This document shows positions 15,254 to 64,000 of a DNA stretch of 64,000 bases, piece by piece; within the stretch, counting starts at the first letter, position 1, and the number at the start of each line of letters is the position of its first letter. Below the pieces are notes generated by a model, which worked only from the letters and a program-made list of their open reading frames with translations, made no database searches and was not told the DNA's origin. This stretch comes from Candidatus Stammera capleta (GTDB lineage Bacteria; Pseudomonadota; Gammaproteobacteria; Enterobacterales; Enterobacteriaceae): the NCBI GenBank assembly GCA_036689415.1, contig CP144817.1, forward strand, positions 42,253 to 106,252. Reading direction: 5' to 3'. Position numbers and translations under genes: made by a program.

Positions 15254-16327
15254 TTATTTTTTTAAAGACATAATTATTGCAAACATAGATATTGTTGTTA
15301 TTAAGGATGTACCTCCATAACTTATTAATGGTAATGGTATACCTACTATTGGAAATATTCCAATTACCATTCCTATATTAATAAATATATGTATACAAAA
15401 ATTTATTATTAAATTTGATATTAATAATTTTTTAAATATATCATTATCATTTATACTAATTATTAAAATTCTAGTTATTAATATTATATAAATTGATAAT
15501 ATAATTAATATTCCTATAAATCCATGTTCTTCAGCTATTAAAGTAAATATAAAATCAGTTTTATTTTCTGGAATAAAATTAAATTTTGATTGTGTTCCTA
15601 AAAATATACCTTTACCATATAATCCTCCAGATCCTATTGCAATTTTAGATTGATTTATTTGGTATCCATTATTTAAAATATCATTATTTTTATTTAAAAG
15701 TGTTATTATTCTATCTTTTTGATATTTATATAATAAAAATTTTCATAAGAATGGTATACTTATAAATATCATTATCATAAATAATGATATTATTTTTTTA
15801 TTAATTCCACTTAAATATAAACCTATTATTCCATATAATAATATTAATATAGATGTTCCTAAATCTGGTTGTAAATATATTAAAATACTAGGAATTAAAG
15901 TTATTATTATTATCAATATAATTTTTTTTATATTTTTAATTGGATAATTATTTTCATTTAATATTTTTGCAATTAATATAGGTACTGCTAATTTGGCTAT
16001 TTCTGAAGGTTGAAATTTAATAATTTTTATGTTTATTCATCTTTTTGCTCCATTTATTATATGTCCATAAATAAATACATATATTAATAGTGAATTACAT
16101 ATTATATATATAATATATGCATTATTAATGTAATATTTTTTATTGAGATTAATTATATATAACATTATTATTAAACTAATAATTATATGAAAAATTTTTT
16201 TATATATAATAGTATTATTTTTATTGTTAATATTAGTACTATATAATAGTAATATACTATAAGTTATAATAAATATTATACATAGTATAGTTATTATATC
16301 TATTTTTTTTATATTTTTTTTATTCAT
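15254..16327 (-). CDS. mrdB: Peptidoglycan glycosyltransferase RodA (SEDS family)
   Basis: The N-terminal ORF 16037-16327 extends through TGA codons to the TAA complement at 15254-15256. The product is polytopic and hydrophobic, 357 aa. It lies immediately downstream of mrdA, as in the mrdAB operon. Confidence 0.8.
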
Positions 16328-16330: not shown

Positions 16331-18073
16331 TTATTTTATATTTTTTTTATAAATAAAATCTGTTATTTTTCTCATTATATTTCCTATTTTTAATCCATTA
16401 CCTCCATGTTCTAAAACTATTGTTATTGCAAATTTAGGATTCTTATATGGTAAAAAAGCATTCATTAATATATGATCTTTTAATTTTCTTTTTATATATT
16501 TTTTTTTATAATGATTATTAATTGAATATACTTGAGCTGTTCCTGATTTTACTGCAATTTTATATTTTGTTGTTAAAAAATTTCAAAATGCTGTTCCATT
16601 TTTTTTATGAGCTACTCCATACATACCTTTTTTAATTATTTTGAGATTTTTTTTTTTAATTATTATATTATTTATTTTTTTATTTTTATATTTATTTAAT
16701 AATATATGTGGTTTTATTATATATCCGTTATTAATTAAAATTAATAATGCTTGATGTATCTGTATAGGAGTTGTTATTAAATAACCTTGTCCTATTCCTA
16801 TAGAAATAGTATCTCCTAAATATCATTGAGAATTGTATTTTTTTTTTTTTCATTTTTTACTAGGTAAAAATAATTTTTTTTCATTTGGTAAATCTATATT
16901 AGTTTTATTTCCAAATTTAAATTTTTTTATTCAATTAATTATTTTTTTAATACCTAAATGATAAGATATTTGATAAAAAAATATATCTGAAGATTCTTCT
17001 ATAGATTTAATTATATTTAATTTACCATGTCCTGTTTTTTTTCAATCATAAAATATTTTTTGAGATGTAGGTAATTTTCATCATCCTGGATCAAACATAG
17101 TAAATTTTTTATTTATTATTTTTTCTTCTAATGCTGCTATACCTATATAAGGTTTTATAGTTGATGCTGGTGGATATATTCCTTGTATTACTTTATTAAT
17201 TAAAGGTGAATTTTTATTATTTAAAATTTTTTTGTATTCTTTATTAAATATTTTTCTTGTAAATAAGTTAGGATTAAAACTTGGAATAGAAATTAAAGAT
17301 AGAATTCTTCCATTTTTACAATTTGTTACTATTGCTGATGCATTATTATTTTTTAATAAATTATAAATAAATTTTTGTAATTTTATATCTATTGATAATT
17401 TTATATTTTTACCAGATATAGGTTTTTTAATTTTATATTTATAAATTATTTTACCTTTATTATTTAATATTTTTTTTTTATATCCATATTTTCCATTTAT
17501 TTTTTTTTCATAATATTTCTCTATTCCATCTTTTCCTATAAATTTTTTTTTATTTTTATTTTTTAATCCTATATATCCTATAATATGAGCTAATATATTT
17601 TTATATGGATAATTTCTTCTTATATATTTTTTTAAATTTATATTTTTAATTAAAAATTTATTTATATAAAATTTTATTAAATTATTTTTATTTATTTTAT
17701 ATAATGTTTTTTTATTATTTTTATATTTTATTTTAATTTTTTTTATTATTTTTTTTGATATATTTATTTTTTTTAATATATGTATAATATTTTTAAAATA
17801 TTTTTTTTTATGTGGTATTATATTAATATAATAATATTTTTTATTATTAGCTATTGGTATATTATTTTTATCTATAATAATTCCTCTATTTGGAATAATA
17901 TTAATTATTTTAGTATAATTTTTCTTAGATAAGAAATAATATTTTTTAAAGTTTATTATTTGTAATTTATATATATTATAAATTAAAAATATTTTAATAA
18001 TTATTAAAATAATTATTATATATATTATTCTATAAATAAAAATGTTATTTTTTTTTTTATATATAATTTTCAT
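16331..18073 (-). CDS. mrdA: Penicillin-binding protein 2 (elongasome transpeptidase)
   Basis: ORF 17081-18073 extends through TGA to the TAA complement at 16331-16333. It has an N-terminal membrane anchor, STIKP (SxxK), ESSD (SxN/D position), KSGTAQ (KTG-type) and a C-terminal VLEHGGNG. Length is 580 aa. Confidence 0.85.
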
Positions 18074-29232: not shown

Positions 29233-29685
29233 ATGTTTTTTTTAAAGAATATAAATAATTACATATTTATTAATAATTTAATATTAATTTATAATAAAAT
29301 GAATAATTTAAAATTACCTACTTTAGGTAAAATATTGATAAGAGCTAGAAAATCTTTAAATTTATCTAGAAAAGATATATCTAAAAAATTATGTCTTAAA
29401 ATAGATATTATAAAAAATATAGAAAAAGATATATTATCTTTTGATATACCCCCCGTTTTTTTATATGGATATATATATTCTTATGCTCGTTTAGTTAAAA
29501 TTCCTAAAAAAAAAATATTTTTTTTTTTAAAAAAATATAAAATTGAAAGTAATATTAATAATAATTTTATTAATGAAAATTCTTTTTTTGTTATATTTAA
29601 AAAATTTATTTTTTTAAATTATTTTAATATAATTAAAATATTTATTTTTATAATATTAGGATTTATTTATTTTTATAATATTTAA
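29233..29685 (+). CDS. rodZ: RodZ-like cytoskeleton adaptor, short form (HTH plus one membrane span)
   Basis: LGKILIRARKSLNLSRKDISKKLCLKIDIIKNIEKD...FLYGYIYSYARLV matches the RodZ XRE-type HTH and the RGY..YA motif. The C-terminal tail is hydrophobic. The position upstream of hisS-der matches the beta/gammaproteobacterial rodZ-ispG-hisS neighbourhood. The start may instead be ATG 29299. Confidence 0.6.
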   Translation: MFFLKNINNYIFINNLILIYNKMNNLKLPTLGKILIRARKSLNLSRKDISKKLCLKIDIIKNIEKDILSFDIPPVFLYGYIYSYARLVKIPKKKIFFFLKKYKIESNINNNFINENSFFVIFKKFIFLNYFNIIKIFIFIILGFIYFYNI

Positions 29686-32460: not shown

Positions 32461-32869
32461 TTTTAATTGACAATCGCTATTATATATAAAATTTAATAGA
32501 GGAAAGTCCGGACTCCTTAGGAAAAGATGCCAGATAATTTCTGGAAAAATATTTATTTATTTTATGAATAGTGCAACAGAAAATAACCGCCATTTTGGTA
32601 AGGGTGAAAAAGTATGGTAAAAGCATACTATATATTATAGTAATATAATATATGTGTAAACTCCATCTGGAGCAAGGCTAAATTTATAAAAATAAAATAT
32701 TTATATTTTTTTTTCTAAAAAAAATATAATTCAATGTATTTTCCATACATATATTTTATTTTTTATGGTAAGCTGCTTGAATTAATAAGTAATTATTAAT
32801 CTAGATAAATGATTGTCTTATTTATTTTTTAAAAAAAATAAATAAACAGAATCCGGCTTATAATTAAAT
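32461..32869 (+). ncRNA. rnpB: RNase P RNA (bacterial type A) with AT-rich peripheral helices
   Basis: The universal P4 strands GAGGAAAGTCCGG (32499-32511) and ACAGAATCCGGCTTA (32846-32860) are present. So are ACAGAAAATAACCGCC, GGTAAGGGTGAAA, GGAGCAAGGC and AAGCTGCTTGA. P2 pairing is gacaatc/gattgtc and P1-like pairing is tttaatt/aattaaa. The ends are accurate to about 5 nt. Confidence 0.9.
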
Positions 32870-32905
32870 GTTTATTTTTTTAAAATTTATATTGATAATT
32901 TATAT

Positions 32906-34620: not shown

Positions 34621-34693
34621 ACGCTCTTAGCTCAGTGGATAGAGCAACAGCCTTCTAAGCTGTAGGTCACAGGTTCAAATCCTGTAGAGCGTG
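34621..34693 (+). tRNA. tRNA-Arg (anticodon UCU)
   Basis: A 73-nt cloverleaf. The acceptor is acgctct/agagcgt and the D arm is gctc-agtggata-gagc. The anticodon arm is acagc-cTTCTAa-gctgt and the variable loop is aggtc. The T arm is acagg-ttcaaat-cctgt and the discriminator is g. No CCA is encoded. Confidence 0.92.
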
Positions 34694-40507: not shown

Positions 40508-40605
40508 TTATATAATATTTTTAAATATTTTATTAATATATAATAGATTTTATTATATAATTATTTTAATTATATTTTAAAATTAATTATTAAATTATAT
40601 TATTT

Positions 40606-47260: not shown

Positions 47261-47383
47261 TATTTATTATAATTTTATTTTATATTTGTTATTATTAATG
47301 TATAAATTATTTTATTAAATTTAAAATATATTTTAATTTATGTTTATAATATATATAAATTTATATTATTATTATGTATTAAT

Positions 47384-50801: not shown

Positions 50802-52061
50802 TTAATTTATTTTTTTTATTTTGATTTTTAAATTTTTAAATTTTTTAATTATATTTTCATAACCTCTATATACATGATATATAGATTTTATAGTTGTTTT
50901 ACCATAAGCAATACATCCTGCTAAAATTAATGTTATTGCACATCTTAAATCTTTAGCAATTATAGTTTTACCAAAAATTTTTTTTACTCCATAACATATA
51001 ATTTTATTATTTGAATGTTTTATTTTTGCTCCCATTTTTTTTAATTCATTTATATGAGAAAATCTTTTTTTAAATATATTTTCTTTAACTAAAGATTTTC
51101 CTTTCGAAATACAATTTAATAAGGTAAATTGAGGTTGCATATCTGTAGGAAAGTTAGGATATGGGTTAGTAATTATATTAACAGATTTACATCTTTTATT
51201 TTTCATATCTAATTTAATAAAGTCATTTTTAATTTTTATTTTAGCTCCAGATAATTTTAATTTTTGTATTATAATATTTAATATATTAGGATTTGTATTA
51301 TAACAAATTATTTTTCCTCTAGATATAGCTGATGCTATTAAATATGTACCTGTTTCTATTCTATCAGGTAATATTTTATATTTACATGATAATAGTTTTT
51401 TAATTCCATATATAATAATAATATTTGTTCCTCCACCGTATATTTTTGCTCCACATTTATTTAAAAAATTAATTGTATCTATTATTTCTGGTTCTTTAGA
51501 ACAATTTTTTATTATAATTTTTTCATTTATAAAAATTGATATTAATATACTAGTGATTGTTGCTCCTACACTTTTCTTCTTTAAAATAATTATATTTGAT
51601 TTTAATTTTTTATCTATTTTAGCTTTTATTATATTATTTTTATATTTTATTTTTATTCCTATTTTTTTAAGTACATATAAATGTAAATTTATTGGTCTAC
51701 TTCCTAAATTACATCCTCCTGGAGTATTCATTATTATTTTTTTACATCTTATTAATATTGTTGGTAATAATCATATAGATGCTCTTGTTTTTTTTATTAA
51801 ATTTGATAGAAAATAATTAATATTTATATATTTTGCATTAATTATTATAATATCTTTTTCCTTTTTTATTTTTACTCCTATTTTTTTAAATAATTTTAAA
51901 GTTATATTAATATCTATTAAATTAGGTATATTTTTTATTATTATTTCTTTTTTAATTAATAAACAACTATATAATATTGGTAAAGCTGAATTTTTTGATC
52001 CTGATATTTTTACTTCTCCTTCTATTTTATTTGGACCTAATATTATAAATTTTTTTATCAT
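50802..52061 (-). CDS. murA: UDP-N-acetylglucosamine 1-carboxyvinyltransferase
   Basis: Two same-frame ORFs are bridged by TGA. ISGSKNSALPIL is present, and PGGCNLGSRPINLH holds the active-site Cys. Length is 419 aa. Confidence 0.92.
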
Positions 52062-52414
52062 ATTTATTATTTTATTTAAAATTTTATAAATTTATTTAAA
52101 ATTTTTATTAATATTTTATTTATTTATTATTATATATATTTTATACAAATATTTATTTTATTTATATGATATACATATTATAATTATTTTTTTTTATTAT
52201 TTTATATATTATAATTATTATATTTTTAATATATTTATATTTTTTTAATATTTTATATATAAAGTATAAATTATATTTTAATTTTTAGTTAATTGTAATT
52301 ATTTTTTTATTTTTTTAAATATTAAATAATTTATATTATTAAATATTTTTAAATAAAAATAAATATGTTATATTAATATAAATTTATTTTAAATTTTTAT
52401 TTTATAATAATTAT

Positions 52415-53341
52415 ATGAAATATAAGTCTGCTTTTTTAAATAGTATTAATAATTTTTTAAATATTAAAAAAGAGGGTATATATATAGATTGTACATTTGG
52501 TAATTCATATCATTCTTTAAAAATATTAAATTTTTTAAATAAATATGGTAAATTATATTCTTTTGATTGTGATCCTGATTCTATTAAAAATGGAAAAAAA
52601 ATAATTAATGATAATCGTATAAAATTAATAAATGATAATTTTTCTAATTTAGAATATTATATTAATTATTTTGATTTGTATAATAAGGTTAATGGTATAA
52701 TTTTTGATTTAGGATTGTCATATATTCAGTTAGATAATAGTAATAGAGGTTTTTCATTTTTAAAAAATGGACCTTTAGATATGCGTATGAATCAAAATAT
52801 AGGATTTACTTTAAAAAGTTGAATTAATAATGCAAAAGAAAAAGATATTTATAACATTATTAAAAAATATGGTCAAGATTATAATTCTAGAAGGATATCA
52901 AAAAATATATTTTCATATTGTAAAAAAAAAAAATTAAATACAACTTATGAATTATCTAAAATTATTGAATATTCTATAAAATCTTATAAGGATTATAAAA
53001 GTAAAGCTAGAGTTTTTCAATCTTTTAGAATATTTATTAATAATGAATTAAATAATTTAAAAAATATTTTATATAAATGTTGTAATTTTTTATCTAAAAA
53101 AGGTAGATTAGTTATTATTAGTTTTAATTCTTTAGAAGATAAAATAGTAAAAAAATTTATTATAGAAAAATCTAATAGTAATTTTAAATTGTTAAATGAT
53201 ATTCCTTTAACATTAGATCAAATTAATAATTTAAATCCACCTGAATTAATAAATTTAGGTAAATTTAAACCTTCAGAGAAAGAGGTTTATTCTAATCCTA
53301 GAATAAGAAGTGCAATATTAAGAGTTGCTGAAAAAATTTAA
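52415..53341 (+). CDS. rsmH: 16S rRNA (cytosine1402-N4)-methyltransferase RsmH (MraW)
   Basis: GIYIDCTFGNSYHS, FDLGLSYIQLDNSNRGFSF, GPLDMRM and NPRIRSAILRVAEK are present. The frame passes through TGA 52820 to TAA 53339-53341. Length is 308 aa. It heads the dcw cluster. Confidence 0.88.
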
Positions 53342-53369
53342 GTTTTATTTTTTTTATTAAGAGGTTTAT

Positions 53370-54878
53370 TTGAAAAAAAAAAATTTAAAAAATATTTTAT
53401 TTAAATATTTTAATAATAATAATTTTCCTAATATTTATATAAAAAATATAAGAATTGATAGTAGATTAATTAAAAAATATGATCTATTTATAGCTGTAAA
53501 AGGTTATAAAGAAGATGGTAAAAAATATATTAATAATGCTTTATTAAATGGAGCAATTGCAATTTTAACATATTCTAATATAAATAAAAATTATTATTTA
53601 TTTAGTTATAAATATAATGTATTTATTTTTTTTATTTTTAATTTAAATAGTTTTTTATCTGAAATTGCAGGTAATTTTTATGGTAATCCAAGTAAAAAAA
53701 TGTTTTTATTAGGTGTTACTGGTACAAATGGAAAAACTACTATTATTAATTTTCTTTCTAGTTGAATTCATTTATTAGGTTATAAAAGTTCTGTATTAAG
53801 TACCTTGGGAAATGGTTTATATAATAATTTAAAATATTCATTAAATACTACAAGTTCTGCTGTAGATACTCAGTATGAATTAAAAAATCAATATGATATG
53901 GGTTCTAAATTTTCTTGCATTGAAATTTCATCACATTCATTAGTACAAAATCGTGTAAAGGCATTATATTTTAATTGTGCAATATTTACAAATTTAACTT
54001 TAGATCATTTAGATTTTCATAAAAATTTTAGAAATTATGAATTAGCTAAACGTAAATTATTTTTTGAATTTAATATTAAAAATTTAATTATTAATATAGA
54101 TGATCCTATTGGGTTTAAATGATTTAAAGAATTATCAAATAAATATGTTATTCCTGTTACTTTTAATAAAAAAAATTTTATTTATTTTAAATATAGATGA
54201 TTATATATAAAAAAAATTGTTTTTTTTGGTTTTTTAAAAAAAGTTTATTTTGAATCTTATTTAGGAAATGGTATATTAAATTTCTTTTTTCCAGGTAATT
54301 TTAACATTATAAATGTTATGTTAAGTTTTGTGTCTTTATTATCATTAAATTTTAATTTTTATGATTTATTAAATACAAGTAAATATTTAAGTTTACCTAA
54401 AGGTCGTATGGAATTTTTTTTTTATAAAAAAAAACCCTTATTTATTGTTGATTTTGCTCATACTCCTGATGCTTTAAAAAATGTTTTATTGGAATGTAGA
54501 AAATATTGTTTAGGAAAATTATGATGTATTTTTGGTTGTACTGGTAATAGAGATAGAAATAAAAGATCTTTAATGGGTTTTATAGCTAAAAATTATTCTG
54601 ATATAGTAATTATAACTAATGATGATTTATATTTTGAAAATGAAAATTCTATTTTAGAAGATATTAAATTAGGTATAAAAAATTTTAATAATGTTTATAT
54701 AATATTAAATAGAAGTTTAGCAATTAAATTTTCTTTTATAAATTCTAATTATAATGATGTTATATTAGTAGCTGGTAAAGGACATGAAAACTTTCAAATT
54801 TTTTTAAATAAAAGAATTAAATATTCTGATAGAAAATTAATTAAAAAATTTTTAAATGAATCTTTATGAAAAATTTAA
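53370..54878 (+). CDS. murE: UDP-N-acetylmuramoyl-L-alanyl-D-glutamate--2,6-diaminopimelate ligase (MurE-type)
   Basis: TTG start with GAGG 5 nt upstream. IDSRLIKKYDLFIAVKG, GVTGTNGKTTII, FTNLTLDHLDFH and VAGKGHE are present. Four ORF pieces share one frame. The TGA in the ATGA junction at 54867 is read through to TAA 54876-54878. Confidence 0.88.
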
Positions 54879-56218
54879 ATTTATTAAAAATAGCAAATAT
54901 TACTGATGCAATTTTATTAGGTAAAAATATATATATTAAAAATATTTCTGTTGATACAAGAAAAATTAATATAAAAGATTCTTTATTTATAGTTATTGAG
55001 GGTTCTTATGATAAAAAATTTTTATGTTTTAATGCTATTAAAAAAGGTGCTTTAGCTTTACTTGTAGATTTTTATTTATCTATATTTAAGGTACCTTTAT
55101 TAATTGTTAAAGATACTAAAATAGCTCTAGGAAAAATATCTTCTTGGTTAAGAAAAAAAAGTTCTTCAAAAGTAATTTGTATCACTGGTAGTACTGGAAA
55201 AACTTCTTCTAAAGAAATAATAGTTAATATTTTAAAACAATCTAATTTTATATTATATAATCTTTATAATTTTAATAATGAATTAGGTGTACCTATTACT
55301 TTATTAAATTTACAATATTTTAAATATAAATATATAGTTTTGGAATTAGGTAGTAATTCTATTGGAGATATTAATTATTTATCTAAAATTACTTTGCCTA
55401 ATATTTCTTGTATTACAAATATTTCTATTTCTCATTTAAGAGGTTTTAAAAATTTTAAAAATATTATAATTGATAAAGGTAAAATATTTAAATATTTATC
55501 TAAAGATGGTACTGCTATTATAAATATAAATTATTTTTATTATAATTATTGAAAAAAATATTTATTAGATAAAAAAAAAATATTTTATAATATTTTAGAT
55601 TTTTATAAATGTAATATATTTATAAGTGATTTAAAATTTAATATATTTGGTACTTATTTTGTTATGAATACTATATATGGTAAACAAAAAGTATTTTTAA
55701 AATTATTAGGTATTCATAACATTTCTAATGTTTTACTATCTATTCTTTTATCTTTATATTTAAATGTAAATATAAAAGATATAAAGTTAGGTTTAGAAAG
55801 TTTATTACCTATTAAAGGTAGATTATATCCTATATTTTTAAATAAAAAAAAAGTAATTTTAGATGATTCTTATAATTGTAATCCTAGATCATTGTATTTT
55901 AGTATATTATTTTTACATAAATGTAATGGTTATAAATTATTAGTTATTTCTGATATGTTTGATTTAAGTTATATGTCTTTTTTTTATCATAAATATATTG
56001 GTATTTTAATAAAAAAAAATTTCTTAATTAATAAAATTTTAAGTATAGGGAAATATAGTTATTATATTACTAAATATAGTAGGATAGGTGAACATTTTAA
56101 TAATTTTAATAAATTATTATCTAGAATAAAAAGTATATTAATTTCATATAATGAAATTACTATTTTAATTAAAGGTTCTAATATATTTAATATGAGTAGA
56201 ATAATTAATTTTTTATAG
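54866..56218 (+). CDS. murF: UDP-N-acetylmuramoyl-tripeptide--D-alanyl-D-alanine ligase
   Basis: VDTRKINIKDSLFIVIEG, ITGSTGKTSSKE, LELGSNSIGDI and DDSYNCNP are present. Two pieces join through TGA. It ends at TAG 56216-56218, giving 450 aa. Confidence 0.88.
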
Positions 56219-56225
56219 GTATTTT

Positions 56226-57275
56226 ATGTTTTATATTTTTATTTTAAAATTATTTTTTTTATTTTTCTTAAATCCTTTTTTTTTATCTCTTATATTATCA
56301 TTTTTTTTTATTAAATATTTTATATTTGTTTTTAATAAATATAAATTTTTTCAAAATTTAAGAATTATTATACCTAATAATCATATTTTAAAAAAAAATA
56401 TACCTACTATGGGAGGATTAATAATTTTATTATGTTTTTTTTTAATATTTTTTTTATTTTTTTATAAAATTTTTAATTTTGATATATTTATATTATTTTT
56501 ATTTTTTATTTTAAATGCATTAATAGGCTTATTGGATGATTATATAAAATGTTTTATATTAAATTCTAATGGTTTATCTATATTTTATAAATATATTTTA
56601 CAATCTTTAATTTCTTTTTTATATATATATTATTTATATAATTATAGTTTTTTAAATTTGAATAATTATTTTATTATTTTTAATTATAAATTTTATATAA
56701 ACTATATTTATTTTATTTTATGATATTTAATATTAGTAGGTACTTCTAATTCTGTTAATTTTACTGATGGATTAGATGGTTTAGTTAGCTTTCCATTAAT
56801 TTTAAATTTTATATTTTTATTAATTATTTGTTTTAATGAATATTTTTATATTATTAATTATATTTTAATTAATTATAATTATTTAATATTTATTAAATAT
56901 TTAATTATATCTATTAGTATTATTTTAGGTATATTATTTTCTTTTTTATATTATAATTTTTATCCTGCTAGAATTTTTTTAGGAGATGTAGGTTCATTAT
57001 CTTTGGGTTTTATTTTATCTAGTATTTTTATTTTGTTAAAAAAAGAATTTTTTTTATTGTTAAGTGGTTTTGTTTTTTTAATTGAAATTATTTCTGTGAT
57101 AATTCAGATTTTATCATTTAATTTTTTTGGTAAAAGAGTGTTTTTAATGGCTCCTTTACATCATCATTATGAAATATTAAATTATAAAGAAAAAAATATA
57201 GTTTTTGTTTTTTGATTTATATCATTTTTATCGTTTTTAATTTCTTTATTTATATATTTTAAAATTTATGTTTAA
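56226..57275 (+). CDS. mraY: Phospho-N-acetylmuramoyl-pentapeptide transferase
   Basis: The product is a polytopic membrane protein. KKNIPTMGG, GLLDDYIK, NSVNFTDGLDGL, FLGDVGSLSLG and APLHHHYE are present. The pieces join through TGA. TAA at 57273-57275 gives 349 aa. Confidence 0.9.
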
Positions 57276-58584
57276 TTATAATAATAAAAATATTGTTGTT
57301 TTGGGTGCTGGTTTAACTGGTTTATCTTGTATTAATTATTTTATTTCATTAAATATATTTCCTAAATTAATGGATTCTAATAATATTAATAATATTTTAA
57401 TTCCAAATGGAATAGAATATTGTTTTGGATATTTTAATAAAGATTGATTATTAAATTCTGATTTAATTGTTATTAGTCCAGGAATATCTTCTTATCATCC
57501 TTTGATTATTAAAGCTAAAAAAATTGGAATAGAAATTATTAATGATATAGAAATATTTTGTAGAATAAATAAAAAACCTATTATTGCTATAACTGGAACT
57601 AATGGTAAAAGTACTGTAGTATCATTATTATTTAATATTTTTAAATCATATAATATTAATGTTTCTTTAGGAGGAAATATTGGTATTCCAATATTAAATT
57701 TATTAAATAATAATTCTGATATTTATATATTAGAAATTTCTAGTTTTCAATTGGAATATATATATTCTTTAAAATTTTTTTGTTCTTGTATTTTAAATGT
57801 TACTTATGATCATATGGATAGATATATATATTTTTATGACTATCTTTTTTATAAATTTAAAATTTTTAGTTATTCTAAATATTGTATAGTTAATTATAAT
57901 GAAAAAAAGACATTATTTAAAAATATTTTTGAAAAAAATGTTATTACATTTGGTTATTATATAGGAGATTATTATATTAATGAATTTAATAATAATTTAT
58001 ATTTATCTAAATTAAATTATAATTATTTAAATACTAAATATATTTATTTAAAAGGTATTTTTAATTACTTAAATATGTTAGTTGTAATTTGTATTTCTGA
58101 AATTTTTAATATTCCTGAAAATATTATTTTAAATAATTTAATTAATTTTAAAGGTTTATCTCATAGGTTTTCTATAATTAAAAAAAAAAAAGGTATTTTA
58201 TGAATTAATGATTCTAAATCTACTAATATAGATAGTACATTATCGGCTTTAAGTAATTTATCTTATGTTAAAGGTAGAATATGATTATTAATGGGTGGTG
58301 ATAATAAAAATGTTAATTTTAAAAAATTTTTAAAACCTAGCTTATTATTATATAAAAATTTATTTATTTGTTGTTATGGGAAAAGTAAAAATATTATATT
58401 TAATTTATTACCTAAAATTTCTTTTAAATTTAATTTTTTATGTGATGTTATTAAATATATTTCTAATTATTTAAAATTTAATGATGTAGTTTTATTTTCT
58501 CCAGGATGTTCTAGTTTAGATCAATTTAATAATTATAAACAAAGAGGTTTAGAATTTATTAAATTAGTTAATAAATATACTTAA
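57268..58584 (+). CDS. murD: UDP-N-acetylmuramoylalanine--D-glutamate ligase
   Basis: ATG at 57268 overlaps the mraY end by 8 nt. IVVLGAGLTGLS, ITGTNGKSTV, LW (TGA) INDSKSTN and FSPGCSSLDQFNNYKQRG are present. Length is 438 aa. Confidence 0.9.
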
Positions 58585-58607
58585 TTAATTATAATTTAAA
58601 TATTTAT

Positions 58608-59666
58608 ATGAATATAAATCGTGTAATGATTATTACTGGTGGTACTGGTGGTCATATATTTCCTGGTTTGGTAATTGCTGAATATTTAAAAAAAAATGGT
58701 TGTTTAGTAAAATGAATAGGTAGTAAAGATAGATTAGAATCTATTTTAGTTCCTAAATTTAAAATAGATATTGAATATGTTTATATTCCTAATTTTTTAA
58801 GTTTAATAAATTTTAATTTTTTTTTAAATTCTTTTTATTATCTAAAATCTATTTATATAATTATAAAAAAAATAAGATATTGAAAACCTGATTTAGTTTT
58901 AGGTTTTGGTGGTTATATATCTTTTTGTGGAATTTTTTCTGCATGATTATGTAAAATTAGTAGTATTATACATGAACAAAATTCTGTTGTTGGTTTTTCG
59001 AATAAAATTTTATATTATATTGCTACTAAAAGTTTACAAGCTTTTCCTAATACTTTTAATTCTAATGTTATTACTGTTGGTAATCCTATTAGAAAAGATA
59101 TTTTATCTATAAAACCACCTAATATTAGATTAATTAATCGTATAGGTAAAATAAATATATTAATTATAGGAGGTAGTCAGGGTTCTGATATTATTAATAA
59201 TACAATTTTTAAAATTGTAAAGATTTTAGATATAAATAAATATTCATTTTTACATCAAGTTGGTTTTTTAAATTATAAAAAAAATTTAGAATTAATAAAT
59301 AATATAAATAATATTAATTATAAATGTGTTGATTTTATATATAATATGTATAATGCTTATAATTGAGCTGATTTAATAATATGTAGATCTGGTGCTTTGA
59401 CAATAAGTGAAATAAGTAGTATAGGTTTAGCTGCTATTTTTATACCATTTATATATAAAGATAATCATCAATATTTAAATGCAAAATTTTTATCTAAAAA
59501 TAATTCTGCTATTATAATAAATGAAGATGAATTAAATGAATTTTTATTAGTTGATATAATATTAAAATTAGATAGAAAAAAATTATTTAATATGTCTAAT
59601 TTATCATATCTTAATAGAATTAAAAATTCTAATAGAAAATTTATAAAAGAAATATATAATTTTTAA
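58608..59666 (+). CDS. murG: Lipid II synthase MurG (UDP-GlcNAc transferase)
   Basis: ATG at 58608. MIITGGTGGHIFPGLVIAE, IHEQNSV, GGSQGS and W (TGA) ADLIICRSGALTISE are present. It shares a frame with ORF 59397-59666. Length is 352 aa. It starts 23 nt after murD, with no ftsW between. Confidence 0.9.
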
Positions 59667-59695
59667 TATAATATTAATATTATGAGATGAATTAA

Positions 59696-61141
59696 GTGAA
59701 AAATAATAATGATTTATTTATAGGTATAGATAAGAATAAATTTATTATACATTTTATTGGTATTGGTGGTGTAGGAATGTCATCAATAGCAGAATATATG
59801 TTATTATCTGGTTATAATATAACTGGATCAGATATATGTTTAAATTATAGAACCAAATATTTATCCTCTTTAGGAGTTAAAATATATAATTATCATTCTA
59901 AAAATAATATATTAAAATGTAATTTGATTGTTTATTCTTCTTCTATTGATTTATTAAATGATGAAATTAAGTTTGCTAAATTTAATAATATTCCAGTAAT
60001 ATCTAGAATTGAAATGTTATATGAATTAACAAAATACAATTATTTAATTACTGTTATTGGTAGTCATGGAAAAACTACTACTACTTCTTTTATATTTGAT
60101 TTATTTTTAAATTATAATTTAAAAATTAATTGTATAAATGGAGGTAATATAAAATCTATTAATTCTTATATTTATTTAAGTGATAATAAATATTTTTTAA
60201 TTGAATTAGATGAAAGTGATAATTTATTTATTTTATTAAGACCTTTTATAGTTATATTAACTAATATAGATTCTGATCATTTAAATAATTATAATAATAA
60301 TATTAATAATTTAATAAATTCTTTTTTAAATTATATTAATAAAATTCCATTTTATGGTTATTTTATAGCTTGTTTAGATGATAATAATATTTTATCAATT
60401 TTAAATAATAATAGTTTTAATTGTAAAGTAATTACTTATGGTTTTAATAAGTATTCTGATTTTTTAATTTCTGATTATAAGCAAAAAAAAAATTTTAGTA
60501 ATTTTAATTTATATATTAATAATAAAGAAAAATATAATTTAAGTATAAATATTTTTGGTAAACATAATATTTTAAATTTAGTAGGTTCTATAGCTTTATT
60601 AAATCAATTTTATAAAATAAATTTATTAGATTTACAAAAGTCTTTATATTGTTTAAAGGGAGTAAATAGAAGATCTGAAATAATAGGTGAATTTTCTTTT
60701 ACATATAAAAATTATTCATATAATAATATATTATTTATATCTGATTATGGTCATCATCCTACTGAAATAGAATATAATATAAATTCTATATATAAATCTT
60801 GAAATAGAAGAATAGTTATGATATTTCAACCTCATAGATTTAGTAGAACTAAATTTTTATTAGATTATTTTGTAAATGTTTTAATTAAAGTTGATATTTT
60901 ATTATTATTAAATATTTATTCAGCTTATGAAGATAATAGTATTTATTCTATAAATAGTAATAAATTATTTATGTTAATGTATGATTTATATAATTATAAA
61001 AATTGTATTTTAATTAATAGAAATTATGAAATTTTTAGATATTTATTAAATATTATTATAAATAAAGATATTGTTTTGTTTCAAGGAGCTGGTAAAACTA
61101 ATTTGTTTTTATATCATTTCATTAATAATTATATAAAGTAA
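59696..61141 (+). CDS. murC: UDP-N-acetylmuramate--L-alanine ligase
   Basis: GTG start, with an in-frame TAA immediately upstream. [36 protein letters not shown] and FQPHRFSRT are present. The pieces join through TGA 60800. Length is 481 aa. Confidence 0.9.
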
Positions 61142-61165
61142 AATTAATTTTTAACTATATTAAAT

Positions 61166-62083
61166 ATGAAAATTATAAATAATGTTGCTATATTTTGTGG
61201 TGGTAGTTCTACTGAAAGAGATATTTCTATGAAATCTGGATACTATATATTTAAGTGTTTATTAAAAAAAAATATTAATGTATTTCCTATTGATATAAAA
61301 TATTTTTGTTTAAATGATTTCTTAAATAAGAAAATAGATAAAGTTTTTATAATGTTACATGGTAAAATAGGAGAAGATGGAATTATACAAGGTTTTTTGG
61401 ATTTTTTAAAAATTCCATATACTGGAAGCGGAATTTTTACTTCATCTTTATGTATAAATAAGTATAATACTAAGAAATTTTTAAGTAATTTTAAAATAAA
61501 TGTTATATCTGATATATTTTTAAGAAAGGAAAATATTATTAAAAATAAACTTTTAAAATTATATAATGAATCTTTTTTAAAACTTAATATTCCTTTTGTA
61601 ATAAAACCTAATGATCATGGATCAAGTATAGGAATAAGTATTATAAATAATTTTTATGATTTTAAAAAATATTTTACTAAAAATAATTTTATTTTTAATA
61701 ATTTTATATTAGAAAAATATATTTATGGTGATGAATATACTATTACTATTTTAAATAAAAGAGTTTTGTGTCCTATAAAAATTAATTTTAAAAATAATTT
61801 CTTTGATTTTAATAGTAAATATAATATTGATAATATAAATATTTCTAATAATATTAATAATGATATTAAAAATAAAATAATTAATATTTCAAAAAAAATA
61901 TGGAATATTTTAGATTGTAAAGGATGTATAAGAATAGATTTTATAGTTGATAAATTTAAAAAAATTTGATTTTTAGAAATAAATACTATACCTGGTATGA
62001 CCAATACTAGTTTAGCACCTATTTGTGCTAAATATTCTGGTATTAGTTATTCAAAATTAATTTTAGATATATTATTTAATTAA
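61166..62083 (+). CDS. ddl: D-alanine--D-alanine ligase
   Basis: VAIFCGGSSTERDISMKSG, LHGKIGEDGIIQGFLDFLKIPYTGSG and IW (TGA) FLEINTIPGMT are present. TAA at 62081-62083 gives 305 aa. Confidence 0.9.
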
Positions 62084-62084
62084 T

Positions 62085-62390
62085 TTATAATTTATAACTT
62101 ATAATTATTTTTATATTTTTTATTTTTTTATGATTTATTTTTTTTATTATTTTTTTTTTATTTTTTATTAAATATTTTTTAGCTATATAATTATTTATTT
62201 TTATATATATATTATTTTTATTTATATTTATTATTTTATAATTATTATATATTTTTGTTGATAGAATTTTTTTTATTTTATTATCTATTTTTTTTATTAT
62301 TTTACTTTTTTTTATTAAATTAGTTAAATTATTTTTTTTTTCTTTATTATTAATAATATTTATAATTGATTTTAAATTTTTATTTTTCAT
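62085..62390 (-). CDS. Small basic protein, possibly DUF721/DciA-like (putative DnaB helicase operator)
   Basis: A 101-aa Lys/Asn/Ile-rich ORF lies antisense between ddl and secA. The pattern ILSTKIYNNYKIININKNNIYIKINNYIAKKYLIKNKKKIIKKIN...IKNIKIII resembles the DUF721 core. I also recall a DUF721 gene sitting divergently next to secA in beta/gammaproteobacteria. The composition is very low in complexity, so this is tentative. Confidence 0.4.
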   Translation of the reverse strand: MKNKNLKSIINIINNKEKKNNLTNLIKKSKIIKKIDNKIKKILSTKIYNNYKIININKNNIYIKINNYIAKKYLIKNKKKIIKKINHKKIKNIKIIISYKL

Positions 62391-62504
62391 TTTTTTTATA
62401 TTTTTATGATAATATATATTATAAATTATTTTAAATTATTAAATAATAATAATAATTTAAATTTTATTATTTAATCTTATTATATATAAGTTTTATAAAT
62501 TATT

Positions 62505-64000
62505 ATGTTTATTAAATTATTTTCATATATTTTTGGTAATAAAAATAAAAAAAAAATTAATTATTTTTATGATATTATAGATAAAATAGTTAGTTTAAAA
62601 AAAGTATTTTCTAAATATCCTGATTTTATTATAAAAAATAATACAGATATATATCGTAATATATTATGTTCTAATAATAATATTTACAATAATAATTATA
62701 TTTTACCTTATATATTTACTAATATATATGAAGCTATTAAGAGAATTTTTGGAATTGAGTTATTTGATGTTCAATTATTAGGGGCATTATCATTATATAG
62801 TGGTTATATTATTGAAATGAAAACTGGTGAAGGTAAAACTATTACATCTACTTTACCTGCTTATTTTTATTCTTTATTTAATAAAGGTGTTCATATAATT
62901 ACTATAAATGATTATTTAGCTAAAAGAGATTGAACTAATAATACTAAATTATTTAATTTTTTGGGTTTAAGTGTTGGTTTAAATTTATCTGGTATGTCTT
63001 TAATAGAAAAAAAAAGATCTTATTTATGTGATATTACTTATGGTACTAGTAGTGAATTTGGTTTTGATTATTTACGTGATAATATGGTTTTTTCAAAAAA
63101 TGATAAAGTTCAAAGAAAAAAATTATATTATGCTATTTTAGATGAAATAGATTCTATTTTAATAGATGAATCTAGAACTCCTCTTATTATTTCTAGTTCA
63201 GATAATAATGTAAATAATATTTATAAAAAAATAAATAAAATTATTTTTGATTTAAAACCTATATATAAAGAAAGTTTTAATTATAGAATTAGTGATGGTG
63301 ATTTTATAATTAATAAAAAAAATAATCAAGTTTATTTAACTGAAAATGGTTTTATAAATTTAGAGAAATTATTTGTGAGTCATAATGTAGTTAGTGAAAA
63401 TGAAATTTTTTATACATCTAAAAATATAAATATTATTAATTATTTAATTTGTTTATTAAAAGCTTATTATATTTATAAAAAAAATATAGATTATTTAGTT
63501 GATAATAATAAAGTTATAATTATAGATAAAAATACAGGTAGAATGGTTCCTGATAGAAGATGATCTGATGGAATACATCAAGCTTTAGAAATTAAGGAAA
63601 ACGTTAAAGTTAATAATGAAAATAAAATATCTGCTTATATAACTTTTCAAAATTATTTTCGTATTTATGAAAAAATATGTGGTATGACAGGTACTGCTAT
63701 TACTGAGGCTTCTGAATTTAATTTAATTTATAATTTAGATATTATTGTTATTCCTACTAATAAACCTATGATTCGTATTGATTATGATGATTTAGTATAT
63801 TTAACAGAAAAAGAAAAAATATATTCTATAATAAAGGATATAAAAAGTAAACATATTAAAGGACAACCTATTTTAGTAGGTACTACTTCTATAGAAAAAT
63901 CGGAATATTTATCTAATTTATTATTTAAATTTGGTATAAAAAATAATGTTTTAAATGCTAAATATCATATGTTTGAAGCTGATATTATTTCTCAGGCTGG
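62505..64000 (+). CDS. secA: Preprotein translocase ATPase SecA, 5' part (continues past the window end)
   Basis: [72 protein letters not shown] and RRW (TGA) [12 protein letters not shown] are present. The same-frame pieces are still open at 64000. Confidence 0.93.

What the first reader, a model, noticed from the sequence alone, without database searches (positions are those of the whole stretch)
52415..62504. dcw cluster keeps every peptidoglycan precursor gene but has lost all divisome genes
The canonical proteobacterial order is mraZ-rsmH-ftsL-ftsI-murE-murF-mraY-murD-ftsW-murG-murC-ddl-ftsQ-ftsA-ftsZ(-lpxC...secA).

Three junctions here are empty where divisome genes normally sit:
- rsmH ends at 53341 and murE starts at 53370, a 28-nt gap where ftsL and ftsI belong.
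- murD ends at 58584 and murG starts at 58608, a 23-nt gap where ftsW belongs.
- ddl ends at 62083 and is followed only by a 101-aa antisense ORF and then secA. ftsQ, ftsA, ftsZ and lpxC are absent there.

mraZ is also absent; a 353-nt AT spacer lies upstream of rsmH.

The Mur ligases keep their P-loops (GTNGKTT, GSTGKTS, GTNGKST, GSHGKTT). MurG keeps GGTGGH, MraY keeps DDYIK and HHHYE, Ddl keeps GEDG, and MurA (50802-52061) keeps its catalytic Cys.

So wall synthesis appears to be under selection while the FtsZ-ring genes have gone from their ancestral locus. This pattern recalls FtsZ-less Chlamydiae. It would be unusual in a genome this reduced, where the wall is usually lost first.
Basis: partly seen in the sequence, partly recalled or inferred. 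Interest (0 to 1): 0.72.

Follow-up and report, generated by a model that had tools for sequence, protein, structure and literature searches.

The report
Cell-wall genes kept, division genes deleted
In this tiny genome of a leaf-beetle gut symbiont (Candidatus Stammera capleta), the cluster that normally holds both wall-building and cell-division genes keeps the wall genes intact and has lost every division gene, and related strains show that loss at different stages.

Summary
Read with genetic code 4 (TGA = Trp), window 52415-62504 is rsmH-murE-murF-mraY-murD-murG-murC-ddl, with murA upstream. No ftsL, ftsI, ftsW, ftsQ, ftsA, ftsZ or lpxC is present.

The organism is Candidatus Stammera capleta, the extracellular pectin-digesting symbiont of tortoise beetles (chromosome 245,958 bp).

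- The window also carries mrdA(PBP2)-rodA-dacA and a shortened rodZ.
- The ancestral sites of ftsK and ftsY-ftsE-ftsX in this window are empty too.
- The "101-aa antisense ORF" is a conserved dciA homolog that abuts ddl with a 1-nt gap.

Eight related loci form an erosion series: mur+ftsA+ftsZ, mur+ftsZ only, mur+ftsA only, mur only (this window), and no mur genes at all. When ftsA or ftsZ exist they sit between ddl and secA, so loss is much likelier than relocation.

Against the closest strain, the six genes murE to murC show 0 indels and dN/dS of 0.15-0.41, similar to dnaK. They are therefore under purifying selection.

I could not scan the whole genome. MreB, MurB, MurI and MurJ are untested, and "every precursor gene" is not shown.

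Verdict: a real FtsZ-free, wall-making lineage and a new variant of the chlamydia-like theme. The mechanism is inferred.

The parts
50802..52061 (-). murA (UDP-GlcNAc enolpyruvyl transferase), the first committed step of wall precursor synthesis
   Evidence: TIGR01072 scores 461 bits against a cut-off of 393, over the full length. The catalytic Cys lies in PGGCNLGSRP.
52062..52414 (.). 353-nt AT-rich spacer between murA and rsmH; no mraZ
   Evidence: Sequence read. E. coli MraZ gives no tblastn hit. No Stammera locus examined has mraZ upstream of rsmH.
52415..53341 (+). rsmH (16S rRNA m4C1402 methyltransferase), first gene of the cluster
   Evidence: TIGR00006 scores 291 bits against a cut-off of 154.
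53342..53369 (.). 28-nt junction where ftsL and ftsI lie in E. coli
   Evidence: E. coli FtsI hits only PBP2 elsewhere in the window.
53370..54878 (+). murE (meso-DAP-adding ligase)
   Evidence: TIGR01085 scores 425 bits against 257. 0 indels against CP144815.1, dN/dS 0.31.
54866..56218 (+). murF (D-Ala-D-Ala-adding ligase)
   Evidence: PRK10773 E 6e-110. TIGR01143 scores 286 bits, just under the 289 cut-off. 0 indels, dN/dS 0.32.
56226..57275 (+). mraY (makes lipid I)
   Evidence: TIGR00445 scores 230 bits against 192. 0 indels, dN/dS 0.15.
57268..58584 (+). murD (D-Glu-adding ligase)
   Evidence: TIGR01087 scores 324 bits against 212. 0 indels, dN/dS 0.41.
58585..58607 (.). 23-nt junction where ftsW lies in E. 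coli
   Evidence: E. coli FtsW hits only RodA.
58608..59666 (+). murG (makes lipid II)
   Evidence: TIGR01133 scores 282 bits against 250. 0 indels, dN/dS 0.39.
59696..61141 (+). murC (L-Ala-adding ligase)
   Evidence: TIGR01082 scores 396 bits against 335. 0 indels, dN/dS 0.35.
61166..62083 (+). ddl (D-Ala-D-Ala ligase)
   Evidence: NF002378 scores 302 bits against 243. dN/dS 0.64, the least constrained gene of the set.
Its stop codon lies 1 nt from the end of ddl, so the ancestral ftsQ-ftsA-ftsZ-lpxC slot is closed.
   Evidence: Pfam PF05258 DciA: the window protein scores 19 bits (E 1.6e-3); the ortholog in CP144815.1 scores 25.6 bits, above the gathering score of 24. A gene annotated DciA sits in the same place and orientation, between lpxC and secA, in an unrelated gammaproteobacterial locus, L013. 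An ORF is conserved in L010 and L011. dN/dS 0.22.
62505..64000 (+). secA, 5' part (runs off the window)
   Evidence: 100% identical to P0001, an 835-aa SecA on a 245,958-bp NCBI contig.
16331..18073 (-). mrdA (PBP2, the elongasome transpeptidase)
   Evidence: TIGR03423 scores 560 bits against 455. Aligned to E. coli PBP2 (8TJ3_C), the SxxK (STIK), SxD (SSD) and KSGT motifs are conserved.
15254..16327 (-). rodA (mrdB, the SEDS peptidoglycan polymerase of the elongasome)
   Evidence: TIGR02210 rodA scores 378 bits against 337, higher than the ftsW model at 279. Aligned to E. coli RodA (8TJ3_B), the residues matching E114, K117, D159 and D262 are conserved.
14046..15239 (-). dacA-type D,D-carboxypeptidase (PBP5 family)
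   Evidence: DacD and DacA models give E about 1e-103, below their equivalog cut-offs. The SLNK, SGN and KTG motifs are visible in the translation.
29233..29685 (+). shortened rodZ: HTH domain plus a hydrophobic C-terminal stretch, with the periplasmic part missing
   Evidence: NCBIfam RodZ PRK10856 matches only profile positions 11-87 of 334. Pfam HTH_25 E 1.2e-10. Same 150-aa length in CP144815.1, no indels, dN/dS 0.33.
40508..40605 (.). 98-nt trxB|serS junction; E. coli has lrp-ftsK-lolA-rarA here
   Evidence: trxB and serS confirmed. E. coli order confirmed. E. coli FtsK and LolA give no hit.
47261..47383 (.). 123-nt rsmD|rpoH junction; E. coli has ftsY-ftsE-ftsX here
   Evidence: rsmD confirmed and rpoH confirmed. 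E. coli order confirmed. E. coli FtsY, FtsE and FtsX give no hit.

Best explanation
**What it is.** The window comes from a Candidatus Stammera capleta strain.

**What happened (shown or strongly inferred).**
- Reductive evolution removed the division machinery gene by gene from its ancestral sites. ftsL, ftsI, ftsW, ftsQ and lpxC are missing from every Stammera cluster examined.
- ftsA and ftsZ were lost later, and apparently more than once. In this lineage both are gone.
- ftsK and ftsEX are absent from their ancestral sites in this window. zapD, which the 325,578-bp Stammera strain keeps next to secA, is absent downstream of secA in this strain's own contig (L003).
- The cytoplasmic and membrane steps that make lipid II are kept under purifying selection: murA, murC, murD, murE, murF, ddl, mraY and murG.
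- So is the one SEDS/class-B PBP pair seen here, RodA-PBP2, together with PBP5 and a RodZ stub.

**How it most likely works (inferred).** Wall polymer is made only by the elongasome-type synthase. Cell fission does not use an FtsZ ring.
- My preferred version (about 0.4) is that RodA-PBP2, positioned through RodZ and MreB if MreB is present, supplies wall for both growth and constriction, loosely as in Chlamydia.
- An L-form-like fission is nearly as likely (about 0.35; see rivals).
- The wall is probably kept because Stammera lives outside host cells and must survive transfer in egg caplets.
For: **Identity**
- CP144815.1 (Stammera) is 93.6% identical to the window over 8 kb.
- The window's SecA is 100% identical to a protein on a 245,958-bp NCBI contig.

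**Genes and empty junctions**

**Ancestral order**
- Checked in E. coli.

**Erosion series among related loci**
- CP144859.1...ddl-ftsA-ftsZ-secA.
- CP144808.1...ddl-ftsZ-secA.
- CP144853.1...ddl(split)-ftsA-secA, plus zapD.
- CP144787.1 and JBNIDL010000001.1: mur genes without ftsA or ftsZ.
- CP144815.1: same layout as the window.
- CP043989.1 and CP024013.1: rsmH next to secA, with no mur genes.

**Homolog searches**
- FtsA was found only in Stammera chromosomes of 296-326 kb. None came from the 212-283 kb group.
- FtsZ was found in the 297-312 kb group and in one 283-kb genome. None came from the window's subclade.

**Selection**
- murE to murC have 0 indels against CP144815.1, and dN/dS of 0.15-0.41.
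- Reference values are dnaK 0.33 and the secA 5' part 0.74.
- Intergenic DNA has 16 indel events in 596 columns.

**Enzymes and context**
- Catalytic residues of RodA and PBP2 are conserved.
- The RodZ stub is conserved.
- Stammera is extracellular and caplet-transmitted (bioRxiv 10.1101/2023.12.12.571295; PMC10910848).
- Chelymorpha symbionts are reported to keep murD, murE and ddl (PMC12905250).
Against: - Only 64 kb of about 246 kb was seen for this strain. A relocated ftsZ, ftsA, ftsI or ftsW cannot be excluded directly.
- The FtsZ search lists only the best 120 hits, with a cut-off near 457 bits. The 283-kb strain's FtsZ scored 462. A diverged FtsZ from this subclade could therefore have fallen just below the list.
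- MreB, MreC and MreD were not testable, so the positioning step is inference from RodZ alone.
- murB, murI, alr, dapF, murJ and uppS were not seen, so a complete pathway is not shown.
- ddl is less constrained than the other genes (dN/dS 0.64).
- Sister strains with neither mur genes nor ftsZ evidently still divide. In this genus the wall is therefore not indispensable for fission.
- No expression or wall-labelling data exist for this strain.
Confidence: 0.75

Rival explanations
1. L-form-like fission. Division needs neither FtsZ nor wall synthesis. Cells split by membrane excess, blebbing or tubulation, or by mechanical shearing in the host organ. The peptidoglycan made by RodA-PBP2 is only a thin protective layer for the extracellular stages.
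For: - Two related strains have lost all the mur genes of this cluster as well as ftsA and ftsZ, yet persist: CP043989.1 and CP024013.1.
- Electron microscopy papers describe Stammera cells as pleomorphic or deformed (PMC8787481; PMC11059521).
- The host organ is described as contractile (PMC11059521).
Against: - In this strain the mur genes, rodA, mrdA and the rodZ stub are as constrained as housekeeping genes.
- A cell enclosed by a sacculus cannot bleb freely.
- The pleomorphy was described for symbionts of other hosts, including Cassida rubiginosa, whose symbiont lacks the mur cluster.
Confidence: 0.35
2. Relocation. ftsZ, and perhaps ftsA, ftsI and ftsW, still exist elsewhere in this genome. 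Only the cluster was rearranged.
For: - About 74% of the chromosome was not seen.
Against: - Where present in Stammera, ftsA and ftsZ are always between ddl and secA.
- Gene order around the cluster is conserved across strains.
- The FtsA search recovered 45%-identical Stammera FtsA proteins but found none in any 212-283 kb genome.
- The ftsK and ftsEX ancestral sites in this window are empty too.
- zapD, present next to secA in CP144853.1, is absent downstream of secA in this strain and its sister.
Confidence: 0.07
3. Decaying leftovers. The mur genes are no longer useful and are simply the next to be deleted, or they serve only a role other than wall-building.
For: - The mur genes are gone in two relatives.
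- ddl is split in CP144853.1, murE is split in CP144787.1, and ddl is missing in JBNIDL010000001.1.
- The Stammera pangenome paper places cell-wall biogenesis in the accessory genome.
- ddl here has dN/dS 0.64.
Against: - There are no indels in murE to murC between two strains that differ at 5-7% of sites, although intergenic DNA has one indel event per about 37 columns.
- dN/dS is similar to dnaK and dnaJ.
- All catalytic motifs are intact.
- The periplasmic enzymes RodA, PBP2 and PBP5 are also retained, which only makes sense if polymer is made.
Confidence: 0.08
4. Artefact. The missing genes are due to mis-assembly or to reading the wrong genetic code.
For: Table 11 does fragment all the genes.
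Against: - Code 4 restores full-length proteins that match the family models end to end.
- An independent Logan assembly of SRR23946975 is 100% identical over the parts it covers.
- The sister genome CP144815.1 has the same layout and junction sizes.
Confidence: 0.01

Closest known systems
Chlamydia trachomatis FtsZ-less division (hybrid divisome/elongasome that makes a septal peptidoglycan ring)
   Same: - No ftsZ, but a retained lipid II pathway.
- PBP2 is retained in both; MreB and MreC are chlamydial components (PMC11975371) that could not be tested here.
- From my own knowledge, not checked here: Chlamydia also retains RodA and RodZ.
- A reduced genome and a host-associated life.
   Different: - Chlamydial division depends on FtsK and also uses PBP3/FtsI (PMC11975371). 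Here ftsK and ftsI are absent from their ancestral sites, and only one class-B PBP is seen.
- The lineage is different (Gammaproteobacteria), and the organism lives outside host cells.
- The FtsZ-less state is recent and varies between closely related strains.
- MreB presence is unknown here.
L-form bacteria (FtsZ-independent proliferation of wall-deficient E. coli or B. subtilis); from my own knowledge, not checked here
   Same: - Proliferation without FtsZ.
- Pleomorphic cells are reported for Stammera.
- Relatives lacking both the mur genes and ftsZ look like natural, permanent L-forms.
   Different: This strain keeps wall-synthesis genes under selection and keeps the RodA-PBP2 polymerase. 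It is therefore not wall-less by gene content.
Insect symbionts with very small genomes that have lost both ftsZ and cell-envelope synthesis (Carsonella, Hodgkinia, Tremblaya, Nasuia); from my own knowledge
   Same: - Extreme AT bias and reduction.
- UGA read as Trp, as in Hodgkinia, Nasuia and Zinderia (PMC13462651).
- Loss of division genes.
   Different: - Those symbionts are intracellular and have no wall synthesis.
- This one is extracellular and keeps lipid II synthesis plus an elongasome.
Canonical dcw cluster of Enterobacterales and their symbionts (E. coli)
   Same: The order of the retained genes is exactly the E. coli order: rsmH, murE, murF, mraY, murD, murG, murC, ddl, then secA.
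   Different: - mraZ, ftsL, ftsI, ftsW, ftsQ, ftsA, ftsZ, lpxC and secM are missing.
- A dciA-like gene lies before secA, as in a non-enteric gammaproteobacterial locus (L013). E. coli has no such gene there.

Membership tests
dcw (division and cell wall) gene cluster | Co-linear mur, mraY and ddl genes in the conserved order, following rsmH | tested here: met
   same order as E. coli for all retained genes, on one strand, with gaps of -13 to +29 nt between neighbours.
dcw (division and cell wall) gene cluster | Interleaved division genes ftsL, ftsI, ftsW, ftsQ, ftsA and ftsZ | tested here: not met
   Junctions of 28, 23 and 1 nt. No tblastn hits other than to the paralogs PBP2 and RodA.
Chlamydia-type FtsZ-independent, peptidoglycan-dependent division | ftsZ absent from the genome | tested here: inconclusive
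   ftsZ is absent from the ancestral slot, from the 64-kb window and from about 20 kb around secA in the two closest relatives. No FtsZ from this subclade appears among the best 120 homologs. The whole chromosome was not scanned.
Chlamydia-type FtsZ-independent, peptidoglycan-dependent division | Retained lipid II synthesis genes | tested here: met
   murA, murC-F, ddl, mraY and murG are intact and constrained. murB, murI and the flippase could not be seen.
Chlamydia-type FtsZ-independent, peptidoglycan-dependent division | FtsK as organiser, plus PBP3/FtsI alongside PBP2 (PMC11975371) | tested here: not met
   trxB|serS are adjacent where ftsK lies in E. coli. rsmH|murE are adjacent where ftsI lies. 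No hits in the window. This holds for the ancestral sites only.
Chlamydia-type FtsZ-independent, peptidoglycan-dependent division | MreB present and required for septal peptidoglycan | not testable with these tools
   mreBCD is not in the window. Only the MreB partner RodZ (HTH stub) is seen.
Chlamydia-type FtsZ-independent, peptidoglycan-dependent division | Peptidoglycan actually made at the division site | not testable with these tools
   This needs labelling with D-amino-acid probes in beetle tissue.
Rod complex (elongasome) | RodA (SEDS polymerase) with catalytic residues, paired with PBP2 carrying SxxK, SxN/D and KS/TG motifs | tested here: met
   The residues matching E114, K117, D159 and D262 of E. 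coli RodA are conserved. PBP2 has STIK, SSD and KSGT.
Rod complex (elongasome) | RodZ, MreB, MreC and MreD | tested here: inconclusive
   RodZ is present but cut to 150 aa, an HTH domain plus a hydrophobic tail. MreBCD were not seen.
DciA (PF05258, replicative helicase operator) | Match to the Pfam model at or above the gathering score | tested here: inconclusive
   The window protein scores 19 bits, under the gathering score of 24. The ortholog in CP144815.1, 87% identical, scores 25.6 bits. The more distant orthologs give no hit.
DciA (PF05258, replicative helicase operator) | Conserved position, antisense and immediately upstream of secA | tested here: met
   Locus L013 has lpxC, then a gene annotated PF05258 DciA on the minus strand, then secA. 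The window has the same arrangement without lpxC.

The most novel reading that the evidence does not exclude
Stammera strains form a natural deletion series for the bacterial division machine: ftsA+ftsZ, ftsZ alone with its FtsA-binding tail gone, ftsA alone, neither, and neither plus no wall genes.

The Chelymorpha-type strains would then show that a Gram-negative cell can grow and split using only lipid II synthesis and the RodA-PBP2 elongasome. It would do so with no FtsZ, FtsA, FtsI, FtsW, FtsQ or FtsK. That is a simpler peptidoglycan-based, FtsZ-independent division system than the chlamydial one.
Probability: 0.3. Interest if true: 0.8.

Novelty: new variant of a known kind. Interest (0 to 1): 0.6.

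Why it matters
Division without FtsZ in bacteria that still make peptidoglycan is known mainly from Chlamydiae and Planctomycetes. In those groups the change is ancient and the intermediate steps are gone.

Here closely related strains of one uncultured symbiont differ in whether they keep FtsA, FtsZ, both, neither, or no wall genes at all. All share the same gene order and all lack FtsI, FtsW and FtsQ.

That gives a comparative system for three questions:
- In what order can a division machine be dismantled?
- Can a RodA-PBP2 elongasome take over fission?
- What does the wall contribute to a very small genome that must survive outside host cells?

It may also explain differences in host immune response to different Stammera strains, a link to cell-wall differences that has already been suggested (PMC12905250).

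Tried and rejected
- **Table-11 ORFs.** These fragment every gene, so I switched to code 4.
- **Contig look-ups by exact protein.**
  - The second used the wrong end of a minus-strand gene.
  - The third, with DnaJ, found only a 3.3-kb Logan contig.
- **Genome-collection scan.** It named the organism but returned only 8 kb, so the full genome could not be fetched.
- **This strain's own NCBI contig.** It is not in the gene-position index. The SecA look-up returned only a 5.9-kb Logan contig.
- **Literature searches.** I searched for Stammera with ftsZ, cell division, peptidoglycan, mreB, rodA, divisome and elongasome and the supplements of two papers. No statement on division genes turned up. 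The 2017 Cell genome paper is not held.
- **Uncorrected tblastn.** A run without composition correction gave only low-complexity noise. It was redone with correction.
- **P0291.** This FtsZ on a 264-kb contig looked like a mid-sized Stammera. It is an unrelated bacterium with a complete dcw cluster.
- **Strain names.** The cluster-member look-up gave no strain or host names for the Stammera proteins. Host assignment therefore rests on genome sizes in Table S2 of the bioRxiv paper and is tentative.
- **Remnants of ftsZ or ftsA.** I looked for them between ddl and secA and found none. There is no room, because ddl and dciA are 1 nt apart.

Full report
**1. Checking the observation**

The window has about 15% G+C. 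With the standard bacterial code every gene in 52415-62504 breaks into pieces. The 61 ORFs I listed contain 130 in-frame TGA and only 5 TGG.

NCBIfam models identify nine genes. Eight score above the curated cut-off. MurF is just below its subfamily cut-off, at 286 against 289 bits with E 5e-85.

| Gene | Coordinates |
|---|---|
| murA | 50802-52061 (-) |
| rsmH | 52415-53341 |
| murE | 53370-54878 |
| murF | 54866-56218 |
| mraY | 56226-57275 |
| murD | 57268-58584 |
| murG | 58608-59666 |
| murC | 59696-61141 |
| ddl | 61166-62083 |

The junctions are 28 nt (rsmH|murE) and 23 nt (murD|murG). ddl is followed after 1 nt by the stop codon of a 101-aa minus-strand ORF, and 114 nt further on secA begins.

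The reference order was verified in E. coli K-12: mraZ-rsmH-ftsL-ftsI-murE-murF-mraY-murD-ftsW-murG-murC-ddlB-ftsQ-ftsA-ftsZ-lpxC-secM-secA.

I ran tblastn (code 4) with E. coli MraZ, FtsL, FtsI, FtsW, FtsQ, FtsA, FtsZ, LpxC, SecM, ZapD, FtsK, FtsE, FtsX, FtsY and LolA. Only FtsI and FtsW hit the window, and those hits are to the paralogs PBP2 and RodA.

**2. What organism this is**

- An exact 45-mer from dnaK matched CP144815.1, "MAG: Candidatus Stammera capleta isolate KGPCFMKM", 244,218 bp. That locus is 93.6% identical to the window over 8 kb.
- The window's SecA fragment is 100% identical to a protein on a 245,958-bp NCBI contig. About 45 further SecA clusters come from chromosomes of 212-326 kb.
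- Logan contigs of run SRR23946975 are 100% identical to the window.
- Stammera is the extracellular, pectin-digesting symbiont of cassidine beetles. It is passed on in egg caplets and is one of the few Pseudomonadota that read UGA as Trp (PMC13462651; bioRxiv 10.1101/2023.12.12.571295).
This host assignment is tentative.

**3.

- **An elongasome operon on the minus strand.**
  - mrdA/PBP2 is at 16331-18073, rodA at 15254-16327, and a PBP5-type carboxypeptidase at 14046-15239.
  - Aligned to the E. coli RodA-PBP2 structure 8TJ3, RodA keeps the residues matching E114, K117, D159 and D262. PBP2 keeps SxxK, SxD and KSGT.
- **A shortened RodZ.** The 150-aa protein at 29233-29685 matches only the N-terminal HTH of RodZ and ends in a hydrophobic stretch. 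It lies next to hisS and der; from memory, E. coli rodZ lies near hisS and der, but I did not check this.
- **Two more empty ancestral sites.**
  - trxB(-) and serS are 98 nt apart, where E. coli has lrp-ftsK-lolA-rarA.
  - rsmD(-) and rpoH are 123 nt apart, where E. coli has ftsY-ftsE-ftsX.
- **The "101-aa antisense ORF" is a real gene.**
  - It is conserved in CP144815.1 (87% identity, dN/dS 0.22) and in CP043989.1.
  - It matches Pfam DciA. The window copy scores 19 bits; the CP144815.1 ortholog scores 25.6 bits against a gathering score of 24.
  - An unrelated gammaproteobacterial locus has lpxC, then a minus-strand gene annotated DciA, then secA.
  - The ancestral order was therefore most likely ...ddl-ftsQ-ftsA-ftsZ-lpxC-dciA(-)-secA. 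The deletion here removed exactly the four genes between ddl and dciA.

**4. Loss or relocation?**

I used SecA, and then the FtsA and FtsZ proteins found on the way, as anchors to read the same region in other genomes.

| Genome | Chromosome (bp) | Layout at the locus |
|---|---|---|
| CP144859.1 | 306,465 | rsmH-murE-murF-mraY-murD-murG-murC-ddl-ftsA-ftsZ-secA |
| CP144808.1 | 282,761 | same, with ftsZ but no ftsA |
| CP144853.1 | 325,578 | ddl split in two; intact ftsA; 366-nt gap instead of ftsZ; zapD beyond secA |
| CP144787.1 | 313,940 | mur genes, no ftsA or ftsZ; murE split |
| JBNIDL010000001.1 | 312,799 | mur genes, no ftsA or ftsZ; ddl missing |
| CP144815.1 | 244,218 | identical to the window |
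| CP043989.1 | 212,704 | rsmH next to secA; no mur genes |
| CP024013.1 | 271,175 | rsmH next to secA; no mur genes |

CP024013.1 appears to be the Cassida rubiginosa reference. That assignment rests on my recollection of its genome size and was not checked here.

The FtsA of CP144853.1 and the FtsZ of CP144808.1 both pass their equivalog cut-offs, at 297 against 176 bits and 405 against 295 bits.

None of these loci has ftsL, ftsI, ftsW, ftsQ or lpxC. Whenever ftsA or ftsZ exists, it sits in its ancestral slot.

The homolog searches agree:
- A search with Stammera FtsA recovered 45%-identical Stammera FtsA proteins, but only from chromosomes of 296-326 kb.
- A search with Stammera FtsZ found FtsZ in the 297-312 kb group and in the 283-kb genome, and none from the window's subclade.
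- The FtsZ result is a weak negative. Only the best 120 hits are listed, and the 283-kb FtsZ was close to the cut-off.

Downstream of secA this strain goes straight to dnaX and htpG. It therefore lacks the zapD, the PNP_UDP_1-family gene and the trypsin/PDZ protease gene that some relatives keep there.

On a rough SecA neighbour-joining tree, strains lacking ftsZ fall in several separate groups. This suggests repeated loss. Together these results make relocation unlikely; I put it at about 0.07. I could not scan the other 74% of this chromosome.

**5. Are the wall genes still in use?**

Comparison of the window with CP144815.1:

| Region | Nucleotide identity | Indel events | dN/dS |
|---|---|---|---|
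| murE to murC (six genes) | 93-95% | 0 | 0.15-0.41 |
| dnaK | 96.7% | 1 (3 nt) | 0.33 |
| dnaJ | 96.2% | 0 | 0.31 |
| tsaB | 93.7% | 0 | 0.32 |
| secA, 5' part | 93.1% | 1 (6 nt) | 0.74 |
| ddl | 90.3% | 1 (at its 3' end) | 0.64 |
| rodZ stub | 92.5% | 0 | 0.33 |
| intergenic DNA around dnaK to rodZ | 82% | 16 in 596 columns | not applicable |

- At the intergenic indel rate, neutral drift would have broken every one of these genes.
- In a genome this AT-rich, synonymous sites are constrained by mutation bias. Absolute dN/dS is therefore inflated, and the comparison with housekeeping genes is the fairer test.
- A published note says that the Chelymorpha symbionts keep murD, murE and ddl while another strain lacks them (PMC12905250). 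The pangenome paper places cell-wall biogenesis in the accessory genome. Both fit.
- The pathway is therefore maintained in this lineage, but it is dispensable in the genus as a whole.

**6. How it most likely works**

*Shown.* The genes for the MurA step and for the steps from UDP-MurNAc to lipid II are present and constrained. So are one SEDS/class-B PBP pair (RodA-PBP2), a carboxypeptidase and a RodZ stub. The division-specific pair FtsW-FtsI and the ring proteins are absent from their sites.

*Inferred.* Wall polymer is made only by the elongasome-type synthase, and fission is independent of FtsZ. Two versions compete.
- **Version (a), about 0.4.** RodA-PBP2, guided by RodZ and MreB, supplies wall for both growth and constriction. 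This loosely resembles Chlamydia, where a hybrid machine containing PBP2, PBP3, MreB and MreC makes septal peptidoglycan rings (PMC11975371).
  - The retention of a RodZ reduced to its HTH domain plus a hydrophobic anchor is the main hint. From my own knowledge, not checked here, that HTH is the MreB-binding part of RodZ.
- **Version (b), about 0.35.** Fission is L-form-like, and the wall serves only as protection during the extracellular and caplet stages.
  - This is favoured by relatives that lack both the mur genes and ftsZ, and by electron microscopy reports of pleomorphic cells (PMC8787481, PMC11059521).

I lean slightly to (a) for this strain, because RodA, PBP2 and RodZ are as constrained as housekeeping genes. 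MreB could not be checked.

**7. Comparison with what is known**

- **Chlamydia-type division.** This strain shares the absence of ftsZ from its ancestral site, the retained lipid II genes and PBP2. It does not share the dependence on FtsK or the presence of PBP3. It works somewhat like that system but is not a member of it.
- **Other very small symbiont genomes.** As I recall, most have lost both the wall and the division genes. Here the wall genes persist in several loci that have lost ftsZ.
- **Prior reports.** I found no paper in the held library that reports the division-gene content of Stammera. The original genome papers are not held, so prior mention cannot be excluded.
- **Rating.** A new variant of a known kind, with interest 0.6. 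The pattern is real and the between-strain series is unusual. The genomes are already public, the mechanism is inferred, and the organism is uncultured.

**8. Limits**

- The whole genome was not scanned.
- MreBCD, MurB, MurI, Alr, DapF, MurJ, UppS, class-A PBPs and wall hydrolases are unknown.
- The host assignment is tentative.
- The tree is a quick neighbour-joining tree on one protein.
- There are no expression or wall-chemistry data for this strain.

Noticed in passing
window 62085-62390 (-); L010 9583-9888 (-); L011 9604-9897 (-); L013 12142-12636 (-): The small ORF before secA is a DciA-like helicase operator. From my own knowledge, Enterobacterales replaced DciA with phage-derived DnaC. 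A dciA in a symbiont classed with Enterobacteriaceae may therefore bear on its phylogenetic placement or on how it loads its replicative helicase.
   Followed up: partly
L008 10001-11089 (CP144808.1) compared with L007 11312-12421 (CP144859.1): In the strain that has ftsZ but no ftsA, FtsZ keeps a conserved GTPase core but lacks the conserved C-terminal peptide, and ends ...NKKKFI. The strain with both genes keeps that peptide (DLDIPTFLRKK). From my own knowledge, this peptide binds FtsA and ZipA. It looks like co-loss of a tether and its docking site.
   Followed up: partly
L004 8363-9634 and 12591-13319 (-) (CP144853.1): The largest Stammera chromosome (325,578 bp) keeps an intact ftsA and zapD, but has only a 366-nt gap where ftsZ should be, and its ddl is split in two. 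These are FtsZ partners without FtsZ at the locus. Either ftsZ was lost recently or it lies elsewhere in that strain.
   Followed up: partly
window 47261-47383: ftsY (the SRP receptor), usually essential, is missing from its ancestral place between rsmD and rpoH, together with ftsE and ftsX. I could not check whether ftsY is elsewhere.
   Followed up: no
window 40508-40605 and 62084; L010 20084-21166 (-): lolA (lipoprotein carrier) and lpxC (lipid A synthesis) are absent from their ancestral sites, yet a porin gene persists near secA in related strains. This suggests an outer membrane without locally encoded LPS synthesis.
   Followed up: no
window 29233-29685: RodZ is cut down to 150 aa, an HTH_25 domain plus a hydrophobic C-terminal stretch. 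The ispG and bamB genes that I recall lying near it in E. coli are absent.
   Followed up: partly
L005 (JBNIDL010000001.1, 312,799 bp, labelled 'Enterobacteriaceae bacterium'): In the SecA tree this genome falls outside the Stammera group. Yet it has the same division-gene-free cluster (rsmH-murE-murF-mraY-murD-murG-murC-secA, no ddl). It is either a deep Stammera relative or a convergent case.
   Followed up: no
whole window: TGG is almost unused: 5 TGG against 130 TGA in 61 ORFs. The only non-coding RNAs found are RNase P RNA (32458-32876) and tRNA-Arg(TCT) (34621-34693).
   Followed up: no
L012 5676-7451 (-) (CP024013.1): A 591-aa ORF with no Pfam hit lies between tusE and rpmE. In this window murA occupies the space between tusE and rsmH. 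It may be a very diverged priA, going by my recollection of E. coli gene order.
   Followed up: no
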